The notes under the pieces are model-generated. The model did not search any database and was not told the origin of the DNA. It was given only the letters and a program-made list of their open reading frames with translations. 64,000 nucleotides of DNA, taken from contig OY729431.1 of assembly GCA_963422395.1 (NCBI GenBank), positions 512,001 to 576,000 of the forward strand, given 5' to 3'. The stretch is from Vicinamibacteria bacterium (GTDB lineage: Bacteria > Acidobacteriota > Vicinamibacteria > Marinacidobacterales > Marinacidobacteraceae). This document shows, one piece after another, positions 112 to 13,584 of the stretch; position 1 is the stretch's first letter, and the number at the start of each line of letters is the position of its first letter. Made by a program: the position numbers and the translations under genes.

Positions 112-926
112 CCACTCCCCACCTCGAGCTCCAACCGGGAAGCGACGGGGTCGTCCATCTGACCCTGCGCCGGCCCGAGGCGCGGAACGCGCTGACCTCG
201 GAGATGGTCGCCGGAATTCCGCTGCTGCTCGAGGAGGCGGCGTCGCTCGCGCCAGAGCGTTGCCGCGTGCTCGTACTTCGGGGCGAAGGGAGAATTTTCT
301 GCGCCGGGGCAGACCTTCGGGCGATGCGCGCTTCGGGACAGGCGGGCGAGGCGGTGAACCGCGAGGATGCGCGGCGCTTCGCGGCCCTCTTCCGCGCCGT
401 GGCGTCGTTCCCGGCGCCGGTGGTCGCTGCGGTTCAGGGAGCAGCGATCGGGGGCGGCTTCGGGCTCGCGGTCGCAAGCGATCAGGTGCTGGCCGAGGAG
501 AACGCCCGCTTCGGGACGCCGGAGGTGCGGCTCGGGCTGGTTCCGGCGGTCATCTCTCCGTATGTGGTGCGCCGACTGGGACCCGGTAGGGCGGGTCCGT
601 TCCTGCTCGGCGGCGCGTTCGCCTCCGGTCCGGAGGCCCTCGGCGCCGGAATCGTTCATGAGCTGACCTCGGTGGGAGATGTCGAGGCCGCGCTCGAGCA
701 GACGCTGGAAGGTTTCCTCAAGAGCGCCCCGCGGGCAGTGCGGCGGGCCAAGGCGTTGATGCTCCGAGCCGTGCCGCTGCCTCCCCCGGACCTCGAGGAG
801 CTGACGATCCAGACGATCGTCGAAGCGCGGGCTTCCGCTGAGGGACAGGCGGGAACGGCCGCGTTCTTCGCGAAGACCCCGCCGCCTTGGGTGCCGGCGA
901 GAGGTTCGGGCGGGAGCGCCCGCTGA
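108..926 (+). CDS. Enoyl-CoA hydratase/isomerase (methylglutaconyl-CoA hydratase, LiuC-like)
   Basis: Crotonase motifs RPEARNAL, FCAGADL, GAAIGGGFGL, PEVRLGL; adjacent biotin carboxylase. Confidence 0.9.
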   Translation: MTTPHLELQPGSDGVVHLTLRRPEARNALTSEMVAGIPLLLEEAASLAPERCRVLVLRGEGRIFCAGADLRAMRASGQAGEAVNREDARRFAALFRAVASFPAPVVAAVQGAAIGGGFGLAVASDQVLAEENARFGTPEVRLGLVPAVISPYVVRRLGPGRAGPFLLGGAFASGPEALGAGIVHELTSVGDVEAALEQTLEGFLKSAPRAVRRAKALMLRAVPLPPPDLEELTIQTIVEARASAEGQAGTAAFFAKTPPPWVPARGSGGSAR

Positions 927-946
927 CCGGAGCCTGCCGCCCCACC

Positions 947-2908
947 GTGCCGCGCCGCGCCGGATCGGCTCCGGTTCGACTCCTGATCGCCAACCGGGGC
1001 GAGATCGCCCGGCGGGTGCTCCGTTCGGCGCGGCGGTCGGGTTTCCAGGTGGGGGTCGTTTCCACGGCTTCCGACCGCGGCGCTCCGATCCGAGCCGAGG
1101 TGGACCGGGTGTTCGAGGTGCCGAACTTCCTCGATGTCGATGCGGTGGTGGCGGCGGCCTCCGACTGGCAAGCCGACCTGCTGCATCCGGGCTATGGGTT
1201 CCTGTCGGAAAACGCGGACTTCGCCGCCGCGGTCGAGAGTGCCGGGATCGGTTTCGTCGGGCCGACTCCGGAGGCGATGCGCAGCCTGGGCGACAAACAG
1301 GAGGCGCGGCGGCTGGCGGTTGCCGCGGAGGTCCCGGTGCTGCCGGCGCTTTCTTCTGCGCACCTCGCCGCGGTTCGGGACCCGGCGATGGCGCTGGAAC
1401 GGAGTGGTGTTGGCTTCCCCTGCGCAGTGAAGGCGGCGTTCGGAGGCGGCGGCCTCGGGATCCGGATCGTGCGCCGCCCTGCGGAACTCGACGAAGCGCT
1501 GGCGAAGGCGTCCGCGGAGGCGCGATCGGCCTTCGGCGATGGAACGGTCTATCTCGAGCGCTGGCTGGAACGGGCGCGGCATGTGGAGATCCAGGTCTTC
1601 GGGGACGGGCGGGGCGGCGGGATCCACCTCGGAGAGCGGGAATGCTCGGTCCAGCGCCGTCGGCAGAAACTGGTGGAGTGGTCCCCGGCGTTCGGGATGT
1701 CGGAAGAGCTCCGGCGGCGCTTGGGACAGGCGGCGCTGCGGCTGGTGCGGGAGTGCCGCTACCGGAACGCGGGGACGGTGGAGTTCCTGCTGGACGGCGA
1801 CGGAGCGTTCCACTTCCTCGAAGGGAACGCCCGGCTGCAAGTGGAGCATCCGGTCACCGAAATGGCGTACGGGGTGGATCTGGTGGACGCCCAGCTGTCG
1901 CAGGCGGCGGGAGAGTGGCCCCGATCGCTTCCCGATCCGGTGGATCGACCCGAGGTGTTCGAACCGGCCATTCCCCGGTTCGCCGCCGTCGAAGCCCGGA
2001 TCCTCGCCGAATCCCCTCGCGGCGGCTTCGCTCCGAGCCCCGGACAGGTGCGGCGTTACCGTGAGCCGGCCGGTCAGGGCATCCGGGTGGATTCCGGAAT
2101 CACCGCGGGCACCGTGGTTCCTCCCGGGTACGACTCGCTACTCGCCAAGGGGATCGCCGCGGGCGGAACGATGGCCGAGGCGGCGGAACGGCTTTCGGCG
2201 TGGATCGAGGAGATGGTCGTCCACGGCGTGGATACGAACTTCTCGCTGCTGCTCGCTATCCTCCGGCATCCGGATTTCCTCGCCGGACGGACGCATTCGA
2301 GTTGGGTCGAGGAGAGGGTGGACGAACTCGCAGTCTCGAAGCTGCCGCCGCTCCTCGATGTGCTCTTGCGTCGGGAACGAGTCGCGCAGTCGCTGGCGGA
2401 AGCGGCTTCGGGTCGGTCAGAGAGCCGGGGCGCGCGCTTTTTCCGCTCGGCGGGCGGGAACTGGAAGGCGCCCGCGGCGTTTCCGCAGATCGAGCCGGGA
2501 GACCGGCCAGGAGAGGTGCTGCTCTCCGGCGGAGCGGTCCGGGCGACGGGAGTCCGGGAACCGCTCCGACTCACCGCGACGGAGTTCGGCGGCGGGCGGA
2601 GAGTCGCAGTTTCCGCTTTCGGAGAGACCGTCGTTCTCCCGCTCCGAAGTGCCGGGGAAGAGTCCGATGTTTCCACCCGGGAGCGGGAAGTCCGGGCGCC
2701 TCTCGCCGGTCGGCTGTTGAGCATCCGCACCGACACCGGAAGCCGGGTGGAACGGGGGGAACAGGTCGCCGTCATCGAGTCCATGAAGATGCATTGGCAG
2801 ATCCGTGCCCCGGCGGATGGAGTGCTCGGGGAACCCGCCGCAGCTCCTGGCCAGACGGTGACCGCCGGCGCCCTCCTGTTCGCAGTCGCTCCGCCGTCAG
2901 CCGGCTGA
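947..2908 (+). CDS. Biotin carboxylase + biotinyl carrier domain (acyl-CoA carboxylase alpha subunit, LiuD-like); start approximate
   Basis: LLIANRGEIA, HPGYGFLSEN, ERECSVQRRRQK, RLQVEHPVTE, C-terminal ESMKM biotinylation motif. Confidence 0.92.
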   Translation: MPRRAGSAPVRLLIANRGEIARRVLRSARRSGFQVGVVSTASDRGAPIRAEVDRVFEVPNFLDVDAVVAAASDWQADLLHPGYGFLSENADFAAAVESAGIGFVGPTPEAMRSLGDKQEARRLAVAAEVPVLPALSSAHLAAVRDPAMALERSGVGFPCAVKAAFGGGGLGIRIVRRPAELDEALAKASAEARSAFGDGTVYLERWLERARHVEIQVFGDGRGGGIHLGERECSVQRRRQKLVEWSPAFGMSEELRRRLGQAALRLVRECRYRNAGTVEFLLDGDGAFHFLEGNARLQVEHPVTEMAYGVDLVDAQLSQAAGEWPRSLPDPVDRPEVFEPAIPRFAAVEARILAESPRGGFAPSPGQVRRYREPAGQGIRVDSGITAGTVVPPGYDSLLAKGIAAGGTMAEAAERLSAWIEEMVVHGVDTNFSLLLAILRHPDFLAGRTHSSWVEERVDELAVSKLPPLLDVLLRRERVAQSLAEAASGRSESRGARFFRSAGGNWKAPAAFPQIEPGDRPGEVLLSGGAVRATGVREPLRLTATEFGGGRRVAVSAFGETVVLPLRSAGEESDVSTREREVRAPLAGRLLSIRTDTGSRVERGEQVAVIESMKMHWQIRAPADGVLGEPAAAPGQTVTAGALLFAVAPPSAG

Positions 2909-2929
2909 GCTGCGGCGCCGGAGGATCGG

Positions 2930-3627
2930 TTGGCGGCGATCCGGGCGGCGAAGGTGCAGCTGGAAGCGGAGCAGCGGGCGCGGGACGAGGCGCGGGGGCG
3001 GGTCCCCGGACAGACCCACAGTCCGGGGAACGGTCGGCGCTACCAGCGCGCGCATGGGGAGCCGAAGGCGGAAGCGCAGGGGAACTTCACCGACCCCGAG
3101 AGCCGGATCATGAAGACGAGCGCCGAGGGGTTCCAGCAGTGCTACAACGCGCAGATGGCGGTGGACGGAGAGAACCAGCTGGTGGTGTCGAACCAGCTGA
3201 CGGCGAATGCGGGCGACCAGGGGCAGCTGCCGGCGCTGCTGGACCGGGTGCGAGAAGAGTTGGGCGCGGTGCCGGCGGTGGTGATGGCTGATGCCGGATA
3301 CTGCAACGAGCGGGACCTGGCGCTGCTGGAGACCCGCGGGATAGACGGGTATGTCGCCGTCGGACGGGAAGGGCGGAAGCGGGCGGCGGGCACTCCGCGA
3401 AGCATCACCCGGCGACCCGCCGGATGAGAGAAAAACTGGCGGCTCACGCCGGGCGGAAGATCTACGCGGCGCGGAAGTGGCTGTCCGAGGCGCCCCACGG
3501 GTGGATCAAGGAGGTGATGGGGTTCCGGCGGTTCAGCTTCCGGGGGCTGCGCAAGGCGCAAGGAGAGTGGGACCTGGTCTGCCTGGCGTTGAACCTGCGA
3601 CGGCTCCCGGGGTTGCTGGCAGCGTAA
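2930..3627 (+). pseudogene. DDE transposase fragment (IS1182-like), 5'-truncated and frameshifted near 3385-3400
   Basis: NFTDPESRIMK, QCYNAQ, ADAGYCNE in ORF 2930-3427; continues in another frame (3424-3627) with YAARKWLSEAPHGWIKEVMGFRRFSFRG and LALNLRRL. Confidence 0.85.
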
Positions 3628-3740
3628 ACGCCTGCCCCGCCCCGCCCTGGCCCCATCAACCCGCCCAATGGCCCTCCGGAGCGCCTTCCCGAACTCCCCT
3701 CCCACCCGAAAACTGCGCGATCCCGCCCCATGACTCCGAT

Positions 3741-3788
3741 CACGCGCTCCCGAACCCCCGAATCTCCCACGCGCTCCCGAACCCCCGA
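3741..3788 (+). repeat. Short tandem duplication CACGCGCTCCCGAACCCCCGA x2 (27-bp period)
   Basis: Identical 21-mers at 3741-3761 and 3768-3788 in the IS 3' non-coding region. Confidence 0.85.
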
Positions 3789-3819
3789 TCCGCCCCAACC
3801 TTTCTGCAGCGCAGACTCC

Positions 3820-4013
3820 TAGTAGCCTGTGGATGAAGTGGCGCGAGCCCCAAGATCGGTGAGGCGCGCGGCGGACAAGGCGCGATTCGGGAGGCATACC
3901 GGGAGTATTCCGACGGAATCGCAACGCCGAGCGAAGCGGTTCAGGCGGGGCCCCCACCGGGAGAACTGGGCATCGCCGACCTTTGGTCGTGTGACTTTGT
4001 CCACGGGCTGCTA
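3820..4013. mobile_element. ~194-bp MITE-like element with 20-bp imperfect terminal inverted repeats
   Basis: Left TAGTAGCCTGTGGATGAAGT vs reverse complement of right end TAGCAGCCCGTGGACAAAGT (16/20); internal imperfect palindrome; related partial copy at 19179-19242. Confidence 0.7.
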
Positions 4014-7000
4014 AGCCTCCATTCCCGCTCGCTCGCGCTGAGCCGCCCTTTGGAGCAGACGCTCCCAGGCTGCGGCGGAACCGCCGATACCGACGGTCAG
4101 GACCGCAGCGATGAGCAGGACTGGCCATCGTTTTCCCGGATCGGCGCCGGCGGCGAGGAGCGCCGCGATCACGGCGGGTTCCGGGTTGTTCCTGCCGGCC
4201 TCGTGGAGGGGAGTGTTGCCGGCTTCGTCGCGGCTGTTGGGATCGGCACCGGCGGCGATCAGCGCTGCGATCACGGCGGGGTTCGGGTTGTTCCAGGCGG
4301 CTTGGTGGAGGGGGGTGTTGCCATGCACGTCGCGGCTGTCGGGGTCGGCGCCGGCGGCGAGGAGTGCTGTGATCACGGCGGGTTTCGGGTTGCCCCAGGC
4401 GGTCTGGTGGAGCGGCGTGCTGCCCTGCGCGTCGCGTGCCTCGGGGTCGGCACCGGCGGCGATCAGCGCCTCGATCATCGCAGAGGCCCCGGTCGTCGCC
4501 GCCGCTTGGAGGGGGGTGCTGCCGTTCGCGTCGCGGCTGTTGGGATCGGCGCCGGCGGCGAGGAGTGCTGTGATCACGGCGGGTTCCGGGTTGTTCCTGC
4601 CGGCCTCGTGGAGGGGAGTGTTGCCGGCTTCGTCGCGGCTGTTGGGATCGGCACCGGCGGCGATCAGCGCTGCGATCACGGCGGGGTTCGGGTTGTTCCA
4701 GGCGGCTTGGTGGAGGGGGGTGTTGCCATGCACGTCGCGGCTGTCGGGGTCGGCGCCGGCGGCGAGGAGTGCTGTGATCACGGCAGGTTTCGGGTTGCCC
4801 CAGGCGGTCTGGTGGAGCGGCGTGCTGCCCTGCGCGTCGCGTGCCTCGGGGTCGGCACCGGCGGCGATCAGCGCCTCGATCATCGCAGAGGCCCCGGTCG
4901 TCGCCGCCGCTTGGAGGGGGGTGCTGCCGTTCGCGTCGCGGCTGTCGGGATCGGCGCCGGCGGCGAGGAGTGCTGTGATCACGGCGGGGTTCGGGTTGTT
5001 CTTGACGGCCTCGTGGAGGGGGGTGTTGCCGGCTTCGTCGCGGCTGTCGGGGTCGGCGCCGGCGGCGGCGAGCGCCGCGATCACGGCGGGGTTCGGGTTG
5101 TTCGAGGCGGCCTGATGGAGGGGGGTGTTGCCGTCCGCGTCGCGGCTGTCGGGGTCGGCGCCGGCGGCGGCGAGCGCCGCGAGCACGGCGGGTTCCGGGT
5201 TGTTCCAGGCGGCTTGCTGCAGCGGGGTGCTGCCGTTCGCGTCGCGGCTGTTGGGATCGGCGCCGGCGGCGGCGAGCGCTGCGATCACGGCGGGTTCCGG
5301 GTTGTTCTTGACGGCCTCGTGGAGGGGGGTGTTGCCGTTCGCGTCGCGGCTGTCGGGGTCGGCGCCGGCGGCGGCGAGCGCTGTGATCACAGCGGGGTCC
5401 GGGTTGTTCGAGGCGGCCTGATGGAGGGGGGTGTTGCCGTTCGCGTCGCGGCTGTCGGGGTCGGCGCCGGCGGCGGCGAGCGCTGCGATCACGGCGGGTT
5501 CCGGGTTGTTCTTGACGGCCTCGTGGAGGGGGGTGTTGCCGGCTTCGTCGCGGCTGTCGGGGTCGGCGCCGGCGGCGGCGAGCGCCGCGATCACGGCGGG
5601 GTTCGGGTTGTTCGAGGCGGCCTGATGGAGGGGGGTGTTGCCGTCCGCGTCGCGGCTGTCGGGGTCGGCGCCGGCGGCGGTGAGCGCTGCGATCACGGCG
5701 GGGTCCGGGTTGCTCCAGGCGGTCTGGTGGAGCAGCGTGCTGCCGTTCGCGTCGCGTGCCTCGGGGTCGGCGCCGGCGGCGACGAGCGCCGCGAGCACGG
5801 CGGGGTTCGGGTTGTTCCAGGCGGCTCGCTGCAGCGGGGTGCTGCCGTTCGCGTCGCGGCTGTCGGGGTCGGCGCCGGCGGCGGCGAGCGCTGTGATCAC
5901 AGCGGGGTCCGGGTTGTTCGAGGCGGCCTGATGGAGGGGGGTGTTGCCGTTCGCGTCGCGGCTGTCGGGGTCGGCGCCGGCGGCGGCGAGCGCTGCGATC
6001 ACGGCGGGTTCCGGGTTGTTCTTGACGGCCTCGTGGAGGGGGGTGTTGCCGGCTTCGTCGCGGCTGTCGGGGTCGGCGCCGGCGGCGGCGAGCGCTGCGA
6101 TCACGGCGGGGTTCGGGTTGTTCGAGGCGGCCTGATGGAGGGGGGTGTTGCCGTCCGCGTCGCGGCTGTCGGGGTCGGCGCCGGCGGCGGTGAGCGCTGC
6201 GATCACGGCGGGGTCCGGGTTGCTCCAGGCGGTCTGGTGGAGCAGCGTGCTGCCGTTCGCGTCGCGTGCCTCGGGGTCGGCGCCGGCGGCGACGAGCGCC
6301 GCGAGCACGGCGGGGTTCGGGTTGTTCCAGGCGGCTCGCTGCAGCGGGGTGCTGCCGTTCGCGTCGCGGCTGTCGGGATCGGCGCCGGCGGCGGCGAGCG
6401 CTGCGATCACAGCGGGGTCCGGGTTGTTCGAGGCGGCCTGATGGAGGGGGGTGTTGCCGTTCGCGTCGCGGCTGTCGGGGTCGGCGCCGGCGGCGGCGAG
6501 CGCTGTGATCACAGCGGGGTCCGGGTTGTTCGAGGCGGCCTGATGGAGGGGGGTGTTGCCGTTCGCGTCGCGGCTGTCGGGGTCGGCGCCGGCGGCGGCG
6601 AGCGCTGCGATCACGGCGGGTTCCGGGTTGCTCCAGGCGGCCTGATGGAGGGGGGTGTCGCCGTTCGCGTCGCGGCTGTCGGGATCGGCGCCGGCGGCGG
6701 CGAGCGCTGCGATCACGGCGGGTTCCGGGTTGTTCCTGACGGCCTGATGGAGCGGGGTGCTGCCGTTCGCGTCGCGGCTGTCGGGATCGGCGCCGGCGGC
6801 GGCGAGCGCTGCGATCACGGCGGGTTCCGGGTTGTTCTTGACGGCCTCGTGGAGGGGGGTGTTGCCGGCTTCGTCGCGGCTGTCGGGGTCGGCGCCGGCG
6901 GCGGCGAGCGCTGCGATCACGGCGGGGTTCGGGTTGTTCGAGGCGGCCTGATGGAGGGGGGTGTTGCCGTCCGCGTCGCGGCTGTCGGGGTCGGCGCCGG

Positions 7001-10000
7001 CGGCGGCGAGCGCTGCGATCACGGCGGGGTCCGGGTTGCTCCAGGCGGTCTGGTGGAGCAGCGTGCTGCCGTTCGCGTCGCGTGCCTCGGGGTCGGCGCC
7101 GGCGGCGACGAGCGCCGCGAGCACGGCGGGGTCCGGGTTGTTCCAGGCGGCTCGCTGCAGCGGGGTGCTGCCGTTCGCGTCGCGGCTGTCGGGGTCGGCG
7201 CCGGCGGCGGCGAGCGCTGCGATCACGGCGGGTTCCGGGTTGTTCTTGACGGCCTCGTGGAGGGGGGTGTTGCCGGCTTCGTCGCGGCTGTCGGGGTCGG
7301 CGCCGGCGGCGGCGAGCGCTGCGATCACGGCGGGGTTCGGGTTGTTCGAGGCGGCCTGATGGAGGGGGGTGTTGCCGTCCGCGTCGCGGCTGTCGGGGTC
7401 GGCGCCGGCGGCGGCGAGCGCTGCGATCACGGCGGGGTCCGGGTTGCTCCAGGCGGTCTGGTGGAGCAGCGTGCTGCCGTTCGCGTCGCGTGCCTCGGGG
7501 TCGGCGCCGGCGGCGGCGAGCGCCGCGAGCACGGCGGGGTTCGGGTTGTTCCAGGCGGCTCGCTGCAGCGGGGTGCTGCCGTTCGCGTCGCGGCTGTCGG
7601 GATCGGCGCCGGCGGCGGCGAGCGCTGCGATCACGGCGGGTTCCGGGTTGTTCCTGACGGCCTGGTGGAGGGGGGTGTTGCCGTTCGCGTCGCGGCTGTC
7701 GGGGTCGGCGCCGGCGGCGGCGAGCGCTGTGATCACAGCGGGGTCCGGGTTGTTCGAGGCGGCCTGATGGAGGGGGGTGTTGCCGTTCGCGTCGCGGCTG
7801 TCGGGGTCGGCGCCGGCGGCGGCGAGCGCTGCGATCACGGCGGGTTCCGGGTTGCTCCAGGCGGCCTGATGGAGGGGGGTGTCGCCGTTCGCGTCGCGGC
7901 TGTCGGGGTCGGCGCCGGCGGCGGCGAGCGCTGCGATCACGGCGGGGTTCGGGTTGTTCGAGGCGGCCTGATGGAGCGGGGTGCTGCCGTTCGCGTCGCG
8001 GCTGTCGGGATCGGCGCCGGCGGCGGCGAGCGCTGCGATCACGGCGGGTTCCGGGTTGTTCTTGACGGCCTCGTGGAGGGGGGTGTTGCCGGCTTCGTCG
8101 CGGCTGTCGGGGTCGGCGCCGGCGGCGGCGAGCGCTGCGATCACGGCGGGGTTCGGGTTGTTCGAGGCGGCCTGGTGGAGGGGGGTGTTGCCGTCCGCGT
8201 CGCGGCTGTCGGGGTCGGCGCCGGCGGCGGCGAGCGCTGCGATCACGGCGGGGTCCGGGTTGCTCCAGGCGGTCTGGTGGAGCAGCGTGCTGCCGTTCGC
8301 GTCGCGTGCCTCGGGGTCGGCGCCGGCGGCGACGAGCGCTGCGAGCACGGCGGGGTTCGGGTTGTTCCTGACGGCCTGGTGGAGGGGGGTGTTGCCGTTC
8401 GCGTCGCGGCTGTCGGGATCGGCGCCGGCGGCGGCGAGCGCTGCGATCACGGTGGGTTCCGGGTTGTTCCTGACGGCCTCGTGGAGGGGGGTGTTGCCGG
8501 CTTCGTCGCGGCTGTCGGGGTTGGCGCCGGCGGCGGCGAGCGCTGCGATCACGGCGGGGTTCGGGTTGTTCGAGGCGGCCTGATGGAGGGGGGTGTTGCC
8601 GTCCGCGTCGCGGCTGTCGGGGTCGGCGCCGGCGGCGGCGAGCGCTGCGATCACGGCGGGGTCCGGGTTGCTCCAGGCGGTCTGGTGGAGCAGCGTGCTG
8701 CCGTTCGCGTCGCGTGCCTCGGGGTCGGCGCCGGCGGCGGCGAGCGTCGCGAGCACGGCGGGGTTCGGGTTGTTCCAGGCGGCTCGCTGCAGCGGGGTGC
8801 TGCCGTTCGCGTCGCGGCTGTCGGGATCGGCGCCGGCGGCGGCGAGCGCTGCGATCACGGCGGGTTCCGGGTTGTTCGAGGCGGCCTGGTGGAGGGGGGT
8901 GTTGCCGTTCGCGTCGCGGCTGTCGGGGTCGGCGCCGGCGGCGGCGAGCGCTGTGATCACAGCGGGGTCCGGGTTGTTCGAGGCGGCCTGATGGAGGGGG
9001 GTGTTGCCGTTCGCGTCGCGGCTGTCGGGGTCGGCGCCGGCGGCGGCGAGCGCTGTGATCACAGCGGGGTCCGGGTTGTTCCTGACGGCCTGGTGGAGGG
9101 GGGTGTTGCCGTTCGCGTCGCGGCTGTCGGGGTCGGCGCCGGCGGCGGCGAGCGCTGCGATCACGGCGGGTTCCGGGTTGTTCTTGACGGCCTCGTGGAG
9201 GGGGGTGTTGCCGGCTTCGTCGCGGCTGTCGGGGTCGGCGCCGGCGGCGGCGAGCGCTGCGATCACGGCGGGGTTCGGGTTGTTCGAGGCGGCCTGATGG
9301 AGGGGGGTGTTGCCGTCCGCGTCGCGGCTGTCGGGGTCGGCGCCGGCGGCGGTGAGCGCTGCGATCACGGCGGGGTCCGGGTTGCTCCAGGCGGTCTGGT
9401 GGAGCAGCGTGCTGCCGTTCGCGTCGCGTGCCTCGGGGTCGGCGCCGGCGGCGACGAGCGCCGCGAGCACGGCGGGGTTCGGGTTGTTCCAGGCGGCTCG
9501 CTGCAGCGGGGTGCTGCCGTTCGCGTCGCGGCTGTCGGGATCGGCGCCGGCGGCGGCGAGCGCTGCGATCACGGCGGGTTCCGGGTTGTTCCTGACGGCC
9601 TGGTGGAGGGGGGTGTTGCCGTTCGCGTCGCGGCTGTCGGGGTCGGCGCCGGCGGCGGCGAGCGCTGTGATCACAGCGGGGTCCGGGTTGTTCGAGGCGG
9701 CCTGATGGAGGGGGGTGTTGCCGTTCGCGTCGCGGCTGTCGGGGTCGGCGCCGGCGGCGGCGAGCGCTGCGATCACGGCGGGTTCCGGGTTGTTCTTGAC
9801 GGCCTCGTGGAGGGGGGTGTTGCCGGCTTCGTCGCGGCTGTCGGGGTCGGCGCCGGCGGCGGCGAGCGCTGCGATCACGGCGGGGTTCGGGTTGTTCGAG
9901 GCGGCCTGATGGAGGGGGGTGTTGCCGTCCGCGTCGCGGCTGTCGGGGTCGGCGCCGGCGGCGGTGAGCGCTGCGATCACGGCGGGGTCCGGGTTGCTCC

Positions 10001-11470
10001 AGGCGGTCTGGTGGAGCAGCGTGCTGCCGTTCGCGTCGCGTGCCTCGGGGTCGGCGCCGGCGGCGACGAGCGCCGCGAGCACGGCGGGGTTCGGGTTGTT
10101 CCAGGCGGCTCGCTGCAGCGGGGTGCTGCCGTTCGCGTCGCGGCTGTCGGGATCGGCGCCGGCGGCGGCGAGCGCTGCGATCACAGCGGGGTCCGGGTTG
10201 TTCGAGGCGGCCTGATGGAGGGGGGTGTTGCCGTTCGCGTCGCGGCTGTCGGGGTCGGCGCCGGCGGCGGCGAGCGCTGTGATCACAGCGGGGTCCGGGT
10301 TGTTCGAGGCGGCCTGATGGAGGGGGGTGTTGCCGTTCGCGTCGCGGCTGTCGGGGTCGGCGCCGGCGGCGGCGAGCGCTGCGATCACGGCGGGGTCCGG
10401 GTTGCTCCAGGCGGCCTGATGGAGGGGGGTGTCGCCGTTCGCGTCGCGGCTGTCGGGATCGGCGCCGGCGGCGGCGAGCGCTGCGATCACGGCGGGGTTC
10501 GGGTTGTTCGAGGCGGCCTGATAGAGCGGGGTGCTGCCGGCTCTGTCGCGTGCCTCGGGGTCGGCGCCGGCGGCGGCGAGCGCTGCGATCACGGCGGGTT
10601 CCGGGTTGTTCTTGACGGCCTCGTGGAGGGGGGTGTTGCCGGCTTCGTCGCGGCTGTCGGGGTCGGCGCCGGCGGCGGCGAGCGCTGCGATCACGGCGGG
10701 GTTCGGGTTGTTCGAGGCGGCCTGATGGAGGGGGGTGTTGCCGTCCGCGTCGCGGCTGTCGGGGTCGGCGCCGGCGGCGGCGAGCGCTGCGATCACGGCG
10801 GGGTCCGGGTTGCTCCAGGCGGTCTGGTGGAGCAGCGTGCTGCCGTTCGCGTCGCGTGCCTCGGGGTCGGCGCCGGCGGCGGCGAGCGCCGCGAGCACGG
10901 CGGGGTTCGGGTTGTTCTTGACGGCCTCGTGGAGGGGGGTGTTGCCGGCTTCGTCGCGGCTGTCGGGGTCGGCGCCGGCGGCGGCGAGCGCTGCGATCAC
11001 GGCGGGGTTCGGGTTGTTCGAGGCGGCCTGATGGAGGGGGGTGTTGCCGTCCGCGTCGCGGCTGTCGGGGTCGGCGCCGGCGGCGGCGAGCGCTGCGATC
11101 ACGGCGGGGTCCGGGTTGCTCCAGGCGGTCTGGTGGAGCAGCGTGCTGCCGTTCGCGTCGCGTGCCTCGGGGTCGGCGCCGGCGGCGACGAGCGCCGCGA
11201 GCACGGCGGGGTTCGGGTGGAGCAGCGTGCTGCCGTGTTCCAGGCGGCTCGCTGCAGGGGGGTGCTGCCGTTCGCGTCGCGTGCCTCGGGGTCGGCGCCG
11301 GCGGCGAGACAGGCGGCCACTTCGTCCGGGGTGGCCCTCTCGAAGAAAGCCCAGGTGTTCCACGTGCTGCAGTCCAAAGTCTGCCTCTCGGCCGCTGCCG
11401 AACAGACTGTCACCATGAGGAACGAGGCCGCCGCAGCCAGAAAGCTCGTAGGAACCCGGATCATCACCAC
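4011..11470 (-). CDS. Giant ankyrin-repeat surface protein (signal peptide, 70 repeats, C-terminal TM anchor); frameshifted by a 17-nt insertion at 11219-11235, ~2480 aa when restored
   Basis: DxxGxTPLHxAxxNNPxPAVIAALAAAGADP repeats; signal peptide and cap lie in ORF 11099-11470, repeat body in ORF 4011-11363; hydrophobic C-terminus WPVLLIAAVLTVGIGGSAAAW followed by Arg-containing tail. Confidence 0.93.
4140..11310 (-). repeat. Coding tandem array, 102-bp unit (two 99-bp units), ~70 copies; terminal 405-bp four-repeat block duplicated (~4140-4950)
   Basis: Directly visible periodicity; a count of 70 repeats is consistent with the 2450-aa ORF length. Confidence 0.97.
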
Positions 11471-11617
11471 ACCATTATCGGTGCACTTGGGGAAGCCCCG
11501 CTTTCACGGATTCGTCGAGACGCGCCGAATACCGGGGATGTTGCGATGTGAGACGCCTTTTCTGCGGGCTGCGCCCCGAGAAGACTTCCGACCCTTCGTC
11601 GCTTGCCGTGCGGGCCG

Positions 11618-12658
11618 TCAGGGCTCGCCGCCGGCGAGTTGGCGGAAGGCCGCGGCGATCTCTTCCGGGCTGCTGCCGGCGCCGAGGGCGGCGGTGAGGA
11701 GCATCCGCGCTTTCAGGCCGTCGAGGTCTTCTCCGGAGACCACGCCGAGCTCCTGCTGGGATCCGGAGAGGACGACTCGCCCGCTTCCGGTGCGAGTCGT
11801 GAAGACCACTGCGGCCCCTGCTTCGCGCACCGCACCCACCGCCTCCATCACCGGCGGCGGAGCGTTGCCCCGTCCAAAGACTTCGACCACGACCCCGCGC
11901 ATTCCTCTCTCGGCAGCGGCGCGGATGGCTGCTGCGCCGCCGCCGGCAGTGAGACGGACGAGTTCCACGCGAGGCTCGATCTCCTCGGCCGGAAGATGGA
12001 TCCGGCGGCGCGGAGTGTGGAAGAGCAGGATTTCGCCCGCGTCCACCGCGCCCACCGGCCCGGTGTCCGGGGAGGCGAAGGCGTGGAGGGCGACAGAGTG
12101 GGTCTTTTCGACCTCCCGGGCGGCGTGGATCTGCCCGTTCAGCACCACCAGCACTCCGAGGTTCCGCGTCCGGGACGAGCCCGCTACCCGGATCGCGTCC
12201 AGCAGGTTGCGGGGGCCGTCGGTGTCCGGGGAGCGGGGCGCCCGCTGCGCGGCGGCGAAGACCACCGGGCGGCCGGCGGGAAGGAGCAGATCGAGCAGAA
12301 ACGCGGTCTCCTCCAGCGAGTCGGTGCCGTGGCTCACCACGATTCCCGCGAGCTCGGGGCGGCCCCCGAAGACCTCTGCGATCCGGTTGGCGAGGCGGAA
12401 CTGCAGCTCGGGATGCATGCGGGAGCTCCCGATCCGAGAGAAGTCTTCGGTGGTGAGCTGTGCCATCCTGCCGAGGTCTGGCAGCCGGGCGCGGAGATCG
12501 GCGGCTTCGAGCGGTCCGCTGGCTCCGCCGGAGATCGTGCCGCCGGTGCCGATCAGGTGGACCTCCGGCAGGGGCTGGGGTCGAGCGGCGGGCAGAGTCG
12601 GGAGCAAGAGTGTCAGGAGGGCCGCGACGGGGGCGGGCCCGAGAGATAGGAACTGCAT
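11618..12658 (-). CDS. L-asparaginase (type II-like, probable signal peptide)
   Basis: IGTGGTIS and HGTDSLEETA motifs, KTHS. Confidence 0.93.
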   Translation of the reverse strand: MQFLSLGPAPVAALLTLLLPTLPAARPQPLPEVHLIGTGGTISGGASGPLEAADLRARLPDLGRMAQLTTEDFSRIGSSRMHPELQFRLANRIAEVFGGRPELAGIVVSHGTDSLEETAFLLDLLLPAGRPVVFAAAQRAPRSPDTDGPRNLLDAIRVAGSSRTRNLGVLVVLNGQIHAAREVEKTHSVALHAFASPDTGPVGAVDAGEILLFHTPRRRIHLPAEEIEPRVELVRLTAGGGAAAIRAAAERGMRGVVVEVFGRGNAPPPVMEAVGAVREAGAAVVFTTRTGSGRVVLSGSQQELGVVSGEDLDGLKARMLLTAALGAGSSPEEIAAAFRQLAGGEP

Positions 12659-12762
12659 GAGGCGCTCTTTATACCGGGCCTTTCCTGCTCGGAGCTCCGA
12701 TGCTTCGGGCTACCGCAGTTTGCCGCGGAGCGGCCCCCGGAGCAGCCCGCCCGATTCCGCCG

Positions 12763-13584
12763 TCAGGAACCTCCGGTCCCGATGTGGATGGCGCCGTTCA
12801 CGGTGCGTACCCGGCACTCGCCTCCCCCCTCGTCCAACTGGACGGTTTTTCGGCGCCGGGTCGGGATATCCAGCTCCTCGGCGCCCGCGAGCTCCATGAC
12901 CACCCGCCCATTCACTGCCTGCGCGTCCACGCGTCCGTTCGCTTCGGAATCGAGGGTCAGCAGTACCTTTCCGTTCACGGTGCGGAAGGAGTGCTCGTCA
13001 CCCGGGCCGAAGCGGTCGAACGCGCACTCGATCCGCCCGTTCACGGTCTGGGCGTTCACGCTGCCGCGCTGCCCGGTGAGCAGGAGCGAGCCGTTCACCG
13101 TCTGGATGGCGACTTCGCCCGAAATGCCGGAGACCTCCACCGAGCCATTCACCGTTTCGATTCTCAGGTCGGCGCGCTCTGGCAGACGGATCGCGTAGTG
13201 GACGGCGCCGTGTTTCCCTCCCCACATCCCGCGCCGTTTCGGCCGCCGGGTGCGGACTTGAAGGCCCATGGAGGTCTGCTGGATCTCAACGGAGACCTCG
13301 TCGAGAGCGGAGTCGTCGGCTCCGACCTTTCGGGCGGTGATCTCCGCTTGGGAGCGGTCCCAAGCGGCGATCGAGACTCGTCCGTTCACATTCCTGAGAT
13401 CGAGCAGATCGCCGGAGTGGAACTCTTCCGTGAAGATCTCGGTTGCCTCGGCGTTCGGCTCCCAGGGGAGGGCGGTCGCGCACCCGGACGCCCCGGCGAG
13501 ACCGGGGACGAGAAGCAGGGCAGGCAGGCGATGGGGCAGCCCGGAACCGCGGGCTGCATTTCGAATTGCCGTCAGGCCGACCAT
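12763..13584 (-). CDS. DUF4097-like beta-strand-repeat protein, possible lipoprotein
   Basis: Recurring TVNGxV/I units; hydrophobic N-terminal stretch ending ASGC. Confidence 0.8.
   Translation of the reverse strand: MVGLTAIRNAARGSGLPHRLPALLLVPGLAGASGCATALPWEPNAEATEIFTEEFHSGDLLDLRNVNGRVSIAAWDRSQAEITARKVGADDSALDEVSVEIQQTSMGLQVRTRRPKRRGMWGGKHGAVHYAIRLPERADLRIETVNGSVEVSGISGEVAIQTVNGSLLLTGQRGSVNAQTVNGRIECAFDRFGPGDEHSFRTVNGKVLLTLDSEANGRVDAQAVNGRVVMELAGAEELDIPTRRRKTVQLDEGGGECRVRTVNGAIHIGTGGS

What the first reader, a model, noticed from the sequence alone, without database searches (positions are those of the whole stretch)
4011..11470. 70-repeat, membrane-anchored, exported ankyrin solenoid (~2480 aa)
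Seen: signal peptide, then a two-Cys cap (DCSTWNTWAFFERATPDEVAACL), 70 ankyrin repeats, one TM helix and a short tail. Known: human ankyrins have 24 repeats, and ankyrin proteins of sponge symbionts have been reported to modulate host phagocytosis. Inference: a very long extracytoplasmic rod with type-I membrane topology, acting as a multivalent host-interaction or adhesion factor. How an inner-membrane-type anchor would display it in a diderm is unexplained. The 34-aa unit has NNP where the usual consensus has GH.
Basis: partly seen in the sequence, partly recalled or inferred. Interest (0 to 1): 0.75.

Follow-up and report, generated by a model that had tools for sequence, protein, structure and literature searches.

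The report
Giant exported ankyrin array, frame-broken
A bacterium of a host-associated type carries a gene for 70 near-identical ankyrin repeats behind an export signal and a conserved two-cysteine cap. In this assembly a 17-base insertion splits the gene, so it is not known whether the protein is still made.

Summary
On the minus strand, 4011-11470 encodes a Sec-type signal peptide, a two-Cys cap and 70 ankyrin repeats (68 of 34 residues, two of 33). It ends in a hydrophobic helix (Kyte-Doolittle 2.02) and a 17-residue tail. A 17-nt insertion at 11219-11235 puts the signal, cap and start of repeat 1 in a different frame from the other 69 repeats. Public contigs could not show whether this break is real.

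The array is not over-assembled. In run X1, repeat contigs have 8x and 27-30x the flank depth, which matches the assembled k-mer multiplicities.

The cap is not private to this gene. It opens the ankyrin cassettes of a very large exported family found in metagenome genomes of many phyla, several bearing sponge-symbiont names. I found no Pfam or NCBIfam model and no solved structure for it.

This gene departs from that family in three ways:
- One unbroken array, built by amplifying a four-repeat cassette, where relatives string together short cassettes.
- No family C-cap.
- An orphan C-terminal helix, absent from 270 relatives checked.

Most likely it is, or recently was, a periplasm-exported multivalent binding scaffold. 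A host-interaction role rests on analogy only. This is a new variant of a known kind.

The parts
11390..11470 (-). Signal-peptide-like leader, residues 1-27 (start at GTG 11470, GTG 11467 or ATG 11464). It has one Arg, a hydrophobic core and AAA before E28. The Cys at residue 23 lies inside the leader.
   Evidence: Searches give the sequence. One search gives KD 2.2 over 12 residues and 2.06 over 15. By homology, 56 of 63 N-terminal caps in relatives follow such a leader. No SignalP run was available.
11276..11389 (-). Two-Cys N-cap, ERQTLDC..WNTW.FF..A....V..CLAAGADPEARD. It is a degenerate first ankyrin unit. Its second half aligns with helix 2 and the loop of a normal repeat.
   Evidence: C, W, F and C are invariant in 14 of 14 aligned caps. 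Cys-Cys spacing is 20 in 197 of 209 caps. The PDB profile search matches only from profile position 19 onward.
11181..11275 (-). Repeat 1 (I-type unit), interrupted by the insertion.
   Evidence: The frames on the two sides of the insertion read ANGSTPLQRAAWN and PNPAVLAALVAA. These are the two halves of the I-type unit that recurs inside the array.
11219..11235 (-). 17-nt insertion, an extra copy of cggcagcacgctgctcc from the next unit about 100 nt downstream. It shifts the reading frame.
   Evidence: One search gives the sequence. In one search an internal-copy contig laid here shows '17 left out' at 11219. In one search the 31-mers starting at 11189-11261 are unique in the genome.
4959..11180 (-). 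61 core units of 34 aa (102 nt). They are built from a four-unit cassette (I, A/J, B, D) plus a variable number of G-type units.
   Evidence: mean pairwise DNA identity 89.4%; the two commonest unit sequences each occur 8 times; longest exact internal repeat is 778 bp.
4149..4958 (-). Two copies of a diverged four-unit cassette (Y Z a b / c Z a d). The Y and c units are 33 aa and lack the NNP turn.
   Evidence: One search lists the units; this block is 81% identical, in register, to an internal I-J-B-D block.
4065..4127 (-). Hydrophobic C-terminal segment WPVLLIAAVLTVGIGGSAAAW, a candidate stop-transfer membrane helix. It directly follows GADPGKR, where relatives have a C-cap.
   Evidence: KD 2.02, reached by 0.84% of chance windows; helices at 279-288 and 295-314 of the model, pLDDT 49-68; no homologue; no sorting-signal model matches.
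4011..4064 (-). Tail of 17 residues, ERLLQRAAQRERAGMEA (4 Arg, 3 Glu), and the stop codon.
4050..12899 (+). Antisense shadow ORF of 2949 aa. It is not a gene.
2909..3627 (+). Context: a remnant of an IS1182-family transposase in two frames, about 380 nt downstream of the ankyrin stop codon.
   Evidence: NF033551 at E 1e-31, covering profile positions 206-351 of 488. One search gives the frames.

Best explanation
This is a real gene of a very large, uncatalogued family of exported bacterial ankyrin proteins. Members have the plan: Sec signal peptide, two-Cys N-cap, ankyrin repeats with an xNPxAV turn.

In this lineage a four-repeat cassette was amplified in tandem, recently and repeatedly. The result is one unbroken stack of 70 repeats. 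The usual C-cap is replaced by an unrelated hydrophobic helix with a short Arg-rich tail.

When the frame is intact, the inferred route is as follows.
1. The protein is exported unfolded through Sec.
2. It folds in the periplasm, with a disulfide locking the cap.
3. It forms a very acidic, curved solenoid that presents the same four-repeat binding surface about 11-15 times.
4. The C-terminal helix tethers it to the inner membrane, unless it is released.

In the assembly a 17-nt templated insertion inside repeat 1 separates the signal and cap from the array. This copy is therefore either an inactive allele or carries an assembly error.

Shown: the ankyrin identity, the repeat count and structure, family membership of the N-terminus, the break, and the diderm envelope. 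Inferred: export, the disulfide, the membrane tether, multivalent binding, and any role toward a host.
For: Identity:
- Ank_2 scores 1358 bits over the array.
- Ankyrin-1/2 chain 4rlv matches at E 8.8e-83.
- AlphaFold2 models eight helix pairs in the last 315 residues with pLDDT 81-94 in the middle. Foldseek gives probability 1.0 to DARPins and ankyrins.

Family:
- A search of 1.84 billion representatives with the 54-aa cap query found 23474 proteins at E<=1e-3 and 199 at E<=1e-30.
- 107 of the 150 best carry the cap motif, 63 within the first 90 aa and 54 in two or more copies.
- 56 of those 63 have a hydrophobic leader before the cap.
- A named-genome scan returned 77 loci, all in metagenome genomes of many phyla, including sponge-named lineages such as Ca. 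Palauibacter rhopaloidicola and Ca. Porifericomitaceae.

Disulfide and export:
- There is no Cys in the 2401 residues after the break.
- The own genome has DsbA (2 matches), VKOR (1), Omp85 (3) and secretin (2).

Amplification:
- 35 distinct DNA unit sequences occur among 69 units, and two of them occur 8 times each.
- The longest exact internal repeat is 778 bp.
- The terminal and internal four-unit blocks are 81% identical in register.

Copy number:
- An X1 repeat contig has depth 303.4 against 37.7 on the flank, a ratio of 8.05. The assembled copies of that segment have 31-mer multiplicity 7.7-10.1.
- Shorter contigs sit at 27-30x the flank, while the assembled multiplicity spectrum reaches 24-40.

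Binding surface:
- Variation among the 61 core units is highest at unit positions 20, 24, 10, 17 and 12. Fifteen positions are invariant.
- Positions 10, 12 and 20, together with the less variable positions 9 and 21, map to the positions randomised in DARPins (recalled).
Against: - The gene is not intact as assembled. The main ORF begins with about 50 out-of-frame, Arg-rich residues and has no export signal.
- No contig of runs X1, X5 or X6 covers the N-terminal unit, so the insertion is neither confirmed nor refuted.
- The C-terminal helix has no homologue. It is absent from the relatives checked: 3 of 150 reach KD>=1.8 at the C-terminus, none convincing by eye, and none of the 60 rows printed from 120 near-length hits exceeds 1.53. 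It is modelled with low confidence and has atypical GC3 of 0.65.
- The family C-cap signature occurs in the last 60 aa of 43 of 150 relatives and is missing here.
- Only 1 of 27 other genomes of the same family has a full cap (G024); G008 and G011 have partial ones. No orthologue was found, so conservation cannot support function.
- No expression data exist.
- An inner-membrane tether in a diderm argues against direct host contact.
Confidence: 0.6

Rival explanations
1. Recent pseudogene. The 17-nt insertion is real and fixed, the array is no longer exported or made, and the locus is decaying. This fits a reduced genome with insertion-sequence remnants nearby.
For: - The insertion is a templated duplicate of sequence about 100 nt away. 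That looks like a replication or recombination event, not a base-calling error.
- An IS1182 transposase remnant lies about 380 nt downstream.
- The genome is small, at 2.9 Mb.
- No orthologue was found in 40 relatives or in JGI metagenomes.
Against: - Apart from this one break, 2401 codons stay open, with GC3 of 0.92 and no other stop or frameshift. Any inactivation would be very recent.
- The insertion is not confirmed by independent data.
Confidence: 0.35
2. The frame break is an assembly or polishing error, or a minority variant, inside a repeat. In the organism the gene is a single intact ORF of about 2480 codons.
For: - The break lies at the edge of a 7-kb array of near-identical units, where consensus building is hardest.
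- In X1 all depth at 11219 comes from a contig without the 17 nt.
- The remaining 2401 codons are intact.
Against: - That X1 contig has 8x the flank depth and carries the internal-copy variants (G>C at 11258). It derives from internal units, not from repeat 1.
- The low-depth path through repeat 1 would be lost to bubble removal whether or not it holds the insertion (my inference), so the contigs give no test.
- A 17-nt templated insertion is not a typical consensus error.
Confidence: 0.35
3. The protein is exported and then released, not anchored. On this reading the hydrophobic C-terminus is not a stable membrane helix, or it is cleaved off, as in other family members and in phage ANKp, which are secreted without a membrane segment.
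For: - None of the relatives checked has a C-terminal anchor.
- The Ankyphage ANKs are described as having signal peptides and no transmembrane domain (10.1101/608950, passages read).
- The helix is interrupted by GIGG and modelled at pLDDT 49-68.
- Two secretins are present in the genome.
Against: - KD 2.02 over 19 residues exceeds the usual 1.6 criterion (threshold recalled) and is rare by chance, at 0.84%.
- Arg-rich flanks fit a stop-transfer segment.
- No sorting-signal model matches the tail.
Confidence: 0.2
4. Over-expanded assembly: the true array is much shorter.
For: - Near-identical 102-nt units with exact repeats of up to 778 bp are hard to assemble.
- Repeat-to-flank depth in the most repeated bin differs between runs: 1690/37.7 in X1, 293.9/13.2 in X5 and 47.9/7.3 in X6.
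Against: - The genome is one 2.9-Mb contig.
- X1 k-mer depth ratios of 8.05x and 27-30x match the assembled multiplicities of 7.7-10.1 and 24-40.
- The tool warns that summed contig depth is not a copy number, so the differences between runs are only a hint of strain variation.
Confidence: 0.07
5. Cytoplasmic, tail-anchored ankyrin array translated from an internal start downstream of the break.
For: The main ORF can start at GTG 11363 and ends in a hydrophobic C-terminus.
Against: - That start would add about 50 out-of-frame, Arg-rich residues.
- The N-terminal fragment is a perfect family-type signal plus cap, followed by the first half of an I-type repeat, so the two ORFs are one gene.
- The absence of Cys and the disulfide-type cap point to an oxidising compartment.
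Confidence: 0.05

Closest known systems
Exported ankyrin cassette proteins with the same two-Cys cap in metagenome genomes. Examples: P0154 (3059 aa), P0008 (772 aa), the roughly 400-aa protein of relative G024 (L002), and the 565-aa paralogue in this genome. Uncharacterised; no family model was found.
   Same: Signal peptide, then C..WNT..FF..A....V..CL.aGAD cap, then repeats with the xNPxAV(I/L)xxL turn.
   Different: Relatives have 3-9 repeats per cassette. Each cassette is closed by a TP(W/F/M)D.A...Y.RL C-cap, and cassettes are often strung like beads. This gene has one unbroken run of 70 repeats, no C-cap and a hydrophobic C-terminus.
Ankyrin-repeat 'eukaryotic-like proteins' of sponge symbionts. 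Sources: Nguyen et al. 2014, seen only as a reference entry; PMC13747020, passages read.
   Same: Bacterial ankyrin proteins enriched in sponge-associated genomes. The cap family is found in many such genomes.
   Different: Those proteins were tested functionally for escape from phagocytosis when expressed in E. coli or Synechococcus. Nothing has been tested for this gene. I did not compare sequences with the tested proteins.
Ankyphage ANKp (Jahn et al., preprint 10.1101/608950; passages read).
   Same: Short ankyrin protein with an N-terminal signal peptide, proposed to be secreted.
   Different: ANKp is phage-encoded, small (a 568-nt gene) and has no membrane segment. No cap-bearing relative was found in viral contigs (0 confirmed of 130 pattern matches).
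Membrane-binding domain of eukaryotic ankyrin-R/B (24 repeats, 4rlv) and NOMPC (29 repeats, 5vkq).
   Same: Long continuous ankyrin stacks. They are among the best sequence matches in the PDB: 4rlv at E 8.8e-83 (the top match) and 5vkq at 3.3e-52.
   Different: These are cytoplasmic, with 33-residue repeats that differ from one another and each have their own partners. This array is exported, has 34-residue near-identical units, and holds more than twice as many repeats. The maximum commonly quoted in print is 34, in a Giardia protein (PMC7055287, passage read).
[quoted passage not shown] 2000. The title was seen in the reference list of PMC2830190; the paper itself is not held.
   Same: A bacterial ankyrin protein that acts in the periplasm. 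It is precedent for a non-host, envelope-internal role.
   Different: AnkB is small, sits in an operon with the catalase katB, and supports catalase activity. No such partner lies here: the upstream gene is an asparaginase.

Membership tests
Ankyrin repeat (Pfam Ank_2 PF12796, Ank PF00023) | Score above the curated cut-off on the repeat models. | tested here: met
   Ank_2 scores 1358 bits against a cut-off of 27.3, and Ank scores 989 bits.
Ankyrin repeat | Helix-turn-helix plus loop, stacked into a solenoid. | tested here: met
   AlphaFold2 gives eight regular helix pairs, mean pLDDT 81. Foldseek gives probability 1.0 to DARPins and ankyrins, but TM-score is only 0.4-0.53 and rmsd 6-9 A.
Exported two-Cys-capped ankyrin cassette family (defined here) | Hydrophobic signal-type leader directly before the cap. 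| tested here: met
   The leader has KD 2.06-2.2 and AAA before E28. The first Cys lies 6 residues after the predicted cleavage site. The same layout occurs in 56 of 63 relatives. No SignalP run was available.
Exported two-Cys-capped ankyrin cassette family | Cap motif with invariant C, W, F, C and a Cys-Cys spacing of 20. | tested here: met
   All are present. C34 and C54 are 20 residues apart.
Exported two-Cys-capped ankyrin cassette family | C-cap of the type TP(W/F/M)D.A...Y.RL closing the cassette. | tested here: not met
   All 70 units read T(P/L)L(H/Q/Y). The array ends GADPGKRW followed by a hydrophobic segment. The signature lies in the last 60 aa of 43 of 150 relatives.
Exported two-Cys-capped ankyrin cassette family | A disulfide between the two cap Cys. 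| not testable with these tools
   No model coordinates are returned, and no solved structure contains the cap.
C-terminal sorting signals (PEP-CTERM, GlyGly-CTERM, MYXO-CTERM, LPXTG; family names recalled) | A match to an NCBIfam sorting-signal model in the last residues. | tested here: not met
   No NCBIfam family matched the last 49 aa at E<=1.
Legionella Dot/Icm ankyrin effectors (NCBIfam T4SS_AnkY, AnkH and others) | Score above the equivalog cut-off. | tested here: not met
   The best score is 49.7 bits against a cut-off of 600. This is generic ankyrin similarity only.
Sponge-symbiont ankyrin proteins that modulate phagocytosis | Reduced phagocytosis or intracellular survival when expressed. 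| not testable with these tools
   This is a functional definition (PMC13747020).

The most novel reading that the evidence does not exclude
The locus is a contingency-type gene for a periodic, multivalent envelope protein. A four-repeat binding surface is copied about 11-15 times into a superhelical 'spring' of more than two turns. On this reading the length varies between host populations: repeat-to-flank depth is about 45x in run X1, 22x in X5 and 7x in X6. Expression would be switched by templated indels in the first repeat. The array would act either as a periplasm-filling scaffold or, after release, as a high-avidity decoy for a repeated host ligand.
Probability: 0.12. Interest if true: 0.7.

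Novelty: new variant of a known kind. Interest (0 to 1): 0.5.

Why it matters
Ankyrin 'eukaryotic-like proteins' are the best-known genomic mark of sponge symbionts. Which of them leave the cell is rarely known.

The two-Cys cap found here follows a signal peptide in most relatives. It occurs in tens of thousands of predicted proteins across many phyla, and no Pfam or NCBIfam model matched it. It could therefore serve as a simple sequence marker for the exported subset, and as a target for structural work.

The gene itself shows how far tandem amplification can take such a cassette. It has 70 regular repeats in one stack, about twice the maximum commonly quoted in print. It also gives a natural near-consensus ankyrin polymer for studies of folding and mechanics. 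If the array length or the frame break varies between hosts, the locus would be a marker of strain-level adaptation.

Tried and rejected
- RNA evidence: no RNA holder was listed by the look-up of sequencing runs.
- Raw Hi-C reads of run X10: 0 reads were laid, so no test.
- Contigs of X1, X5 and X6: the unique flank contigs stop at 11292 (X1), 11278 (X5) and 11311 (X6). No contig represents repeat 1, with or without the insertion, so the frame break stays untested.
- JGI metagenome contigs: an exact 31-nt probe from the cap found nothing. A protein scan gave 55 loci, the best 38-54% identical, and no orthologue.
- Relatives: in 40 relatives only the ankyrin part matched, except in G024, G006 and G003. 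In the relative genome G005 the ankyrin genes at a similar genome coordinate (551-556 kb) are kinase-ankyrin and signal-less 33-residue arrays, not orthologues.
- Viral contigs: 130 pattern matches for the cap, none confirmed.
- C-terminal tail search: 838 candidates, none at E<=10. The tool itself calls this weak evidence.
- NCBIfam sorting signals: none matched.
- Rfam over the window: no match.
- Sigma-70 promoter scan of 3000-12800: 0 sites. The two terminator-like hits are repeat sequence on the wrong strand.
- Programmed frameshifting: I saw no slippery heptamer at the break (reading). A shift there would leave six extra residues in repeat 1. Rejected.
- Lipoprotein reading of MVTVC: Val at position -1 is atypical for a lipobox (recalled consensus). 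Not pursued.
- Taxon name: genomes reached through named loci are given no kinship, so the phylum is not stated.
A 5-row alignment worked.
- Counting repeats in other giant ankyrin proteins by regex is crude. Proteins such as P0160 (3039 aa, Ank_2 1538 bits) and P0161 (4026 aa) hold as much ankyrin sequence or more. 'Largest' therefore applies only to regular, unbroken arrays among the hits examined.
- Literature searches turned up no description of the cap or of such an array. They cover open-access text only.

Full report
**What is there**

The window is G000:C1:512001-576000 of a single-contig genome of 2,908,270 bp, 93.8% complete, at about 69% G+C. On the minus strand two ORFs abut: 11099..11470 (123 aa) and 4011..11363 (2450 aa).

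The first ORF reads as follows:
- a signal-type leader, VVMIRVPTSFLAAAASFLMVTVCSAAA;
- ERQTL;
- the cap, DCSTWNTWAFFERATPDEVAACLAAGADPEARD;
- the start of an ankyrin repeat, ANGSTPLQRAAWN, after which it runs out of frame.

The second ORF begins with about 50 Arg-rich out-of-frame residues. It then reads PNPAVLAALVAA and 69 further repeats.

The DNA shows why. Seventeen bases at 11219-11235 are an extra copy of a stretch that lies about 100 nt further on, in the next unit. The sequence before and after them is the two halves of one 'I-type' unit that recurs inside the array. So this is one gene with one frame break.

**Counts**
- There are 70 G.T[PL]L[HQY] motifs, 1 before and 69 after the break, spaced 34 aa 66 times and 33 aa twice.
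- Tandem Repeats Finder reports period 102, 69.5 copies and 87% matches over 4141-11218.
- Read through with an X at the break, the product would be about 2480 residues (computed the length only).
- The plus-strand ORF of 2949 aa is a shadow. Its codon-position G+C is the mirror image of the ankyrin frame, and 1000 aa of it match no Pfam family above cut-off.

**Is the array real?**

The longest exact internal repeat is 778 bp, so only long reads could have assembled it. The genome is one contig.

Six public runs hold half or more of the sampled words of the flank, and three further runs hold a small share. In run X1 the single-copy flank contig has depth 37.7 and no differences over 1359 nt. 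A 224-nt repeat contig has depth 303.4, which is 8.05x the flank. The seven assembled copies of that segment have mean 31-mer multiplicities of 7.7-10.1. Contigs of 38-47 nt sit at 27-30x the flank, and the assembled spectrum has 31-mers at 24-40x. This fits the assembled copy number. X1 may, however, be the source data.

The frame break could not be tested. The 31-mers starting at 11189-11261 are unique in the genome, yet no contig of X1, X5 or X6 represents repeat 1 in either form. I take this low-depth path to have been lost as a bubble beside the 8x internal path. That is my inference. The raw Hi-C run gave 0 reads.

**What kind of protein**

The array is ankyrin beyond doubt. Ank_2 scores 1358 bits, and ankyrin-1/2 chain 4rlv matches at E 8.8e-83. 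The alignments place one extra residue in the turn between the two helices, which is where the NNP sits.

AlphaFold2 models the last 315 residues as eight regular helix pairs, with pLDDT 81-94 in the middle. Foldseek gives probability 1.0 to DARPins and ankyrins. TM-scores are only 0.4-0.53 and rmsd is 6-9 A, which may reflect a different curvature.

After the break the 2401 residues contain no Cys, 27% Ala, 290 Asp+Glu and 104 Lys+Arg.

**The cap is a family signature**

A search of 1.84 billion representatives with the 54-residue cap query found 23474 proteins at E<=1e-3 and 199 at E<=1e-30. Many of the weaker ones will match only the ankyrin half of the query.

Of the 150 best hits:
- 107 carry the motif C..W[N..]..FF...C by my regex;
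- 63 have it within the first 90 residues;
- 54 have it two or more times, at the head of each of several ankyrin cassettes;
- in 56 of the 63, a hydrophobic leader precedes it;
- the two Cys are 20 residues apart in 197 of 209 caps.

In a 14-row alignment C, W, F and C are invariant.

Pfam and NCBIfam have no model for the cap. The 123-aa fragment gives only Ank_4 below cut-off, and the 78-aa N-terminus gives nothing. In the PDB a cap profile matches only from its position 19 onward, which is the part equivalent to helix 2 and the loop of an ordinary repeat or of the DARPin N-cap.

The xNPxAV turn is a family trait as well. 129 of the 150 hits have it, and 98 of the 107 cap-bearing ones do.

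A scan of one genome per prokaryotic species returned 77 loci, all in metagenome-assembled genomes. They come from Alphaproteobacteria, Gammaproteobacteria, Gemmatimonadota, Acidobacteriota, Nitrospirota, Nitrospinota, Latescibacterota, Deinococcota, Cyanobacteria, Spirochaetia and Thermodesulfobacteriota. Several bear sponge-symbiont names. I recall, but did not check, that many of the bin names come from sponge studies.

Two such genomes hold dozens of full caps each. This genome has only two cap-bearing genes: this one and a 565-aa paralogue, which sits beside an IS5-like transposase-like ORF (named by eye, not scanned). Among 27 other genomes of its family, a full cap was found in 1 (G024) and partial ones in 2.

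**How this gene differs from the family**

Relatives close each cassette of 3-9 repeats with a C-cap of the type TP(W/F/M)D.A...Y.RL. That signature lies in the last 60 aa of 43 of 150 hits. Even the giant P0154 (3059 aa, the best near-length hit at 41% identity) is a string of such short cassettes.

This gene is one unbroken stack. By a crude motif count it has 61 consecutive regular units, against 15 or fewer in the 16 other long proteins examined. Other proteins hold as much ankyrin sequence or more.

The stack was built from a four-unit cassette. The internal block I-J-B-D and the terminal block Y-Z-a-b are 81% identical in register. A/J-B pairs recur 11 times, and 35 DNA unit sequences cover the 69 units.

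Variation among the 61 core units is concentrated at unit positions 20, 24, 10, 17 and 12, while 15 positions never vary. As I recall the DARPin design, positions 10, 12 and 20, and the less variable 9 and 21, are the target-binding positions.

**The C-terminus**

The array ends GADPGKR, then WPVLLIAAVLTVGIGGSAAAW, then ERLLQRAAQRERAGMEA. The hydrophobic window has KD 2.02, a value reached by 0.84% of stop-free windows of the same length in this genome.

Against that, several points weaken the anchor:
- the segment has no homologue;
- no sorting-signal model matches it;
- its GC3 is 0.65, against 0.92 in the array;
- it is modelled with low confidence and a break at GIGG;
- no relative checked has such an end.

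I treat the anchor as possible, at about even odds.

**Cell envelope**

The genome has Omp85 (3 matches), secretin (2), DsbA (2) and VKOR (1). LpxC was not found. It is therefore a diderm that can form disulfides outside the cytoplasm. A protein with a cleaved signal and a C-terminal stop-transfer helix would sit in the periplasm, not on the surface.

**Context**

Upstream on the same strand lies a type II asparaginase-like gene with its own leader. Downstream lies a remnant of an IS1182-family transposase in two frames. No Rfam family matched the window, and no promoter-like site was found in 3000-12800.

**Comparison with what is known**

- Ankyrin proteins are a recognised mark of sponge symbionts, and single ones can let bacteria escape sponge phagocytosis (PMC13747020, passages read). 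Nguyen et al. 2014 was seen only as a reference entry.
- Phage ANKp has a signal peptide and no membrane domain, and lowers phagocytosis (10.1101/608950, passages read).
- A periplasmic ankyrin-like protein, AnkB, is known in Pseudomonas. Only the title was seen, in a reference list; the paper is not held.
- The repeat maximum quoted in print is 34 (PMC7055287, passage read).
- My six literature searches found no description of the cap. They cover open-access text only.

**Verdict**

This is a real, very unusual member of a large but uncatalogued exported ankyrin family. It was made by recent tandem amplification, has an orphan C-terminal helix, and is broken in this assembly by one templated insertion whose reality is open. 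Function toward a host is analogy, not evidence.

Noticed in passing
window 2909-3627 (+): Remnant of an IS1182-family transposase in two frames. It covers profile positions 206-351 and then a C-terminal piece, and lies between the carboxylase gene and the ankyrin gene.
   Followed up: partly
L011 (G005:C1:545001-562000) 4359-7442 (-) and 7982-11380 (-): A relative of the same family carries a Ser/Thr-kinase-like (by eye, not scanned)-ankyrin fusion (1027 aa) and a 1132-aa array of about 33 near-identical 33-residue ankyrin repeats. Neither has a signal peptide. Amplified ankyrin arrays therefore recur in this bacterial family in a second, cytoplasmic-type form.
   Followed up: partly
L145 (G000:C1:1887001-1893000) 678-1238 (-), 1648-2301 (+), 2462-4159 (-): The 565-aa capped paralogue has a second, degenerate cap in mid-protein. 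It lies next to an IS5-like transposase-like ORF (named by eye, not scanned) and a small 186-aa ankyrin ORF with a cap-like C.GW...F...EC motif.
   Followed up: partly
window 11100-11310, runs X1, X5 and X6: Repeat-to-flank contig depth in the most repeated bin is about 45x in X1, 22x in X5 and 7x in X6. This could mean array-length differences between populations, or only differences in coverage and filtering.
   Followed up: no
whole genome G000: Omp85 and secretin are present but no LpxC match was found (genome 93.8% complete). The control genomes of Deinococcus, Thermus and Thermotoga show the same pattern. The organism may be a diderm without classical lipid A.
   Followed up: partly
window 11618-12658 (-): The type II asparaginase-like gene directly upstream has its own hydrophobic leader. 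It scores 193 bits against the TIGR00520 cut-off of 314, so it is a divergent, probably exported asparaginase or glutaminase.
   Followed up: no
window 3700-3830: Short direct repeats (peptide images PNPRISHALPNPRS and GFGSAWEIRGFGSA) lie between the insertion-sequence remnant and the ankyrin stop codon. They may be an insertion-sequence end.
   Followed up: no
genomes G041 (Trueperaceae MAG) and G042: Each of these genomes, about 3.1 Mb, holds dozens of full-length cap matches. That is an extreme expansion of the capped ankyrin family compared with two copies here.
   Followed up: no
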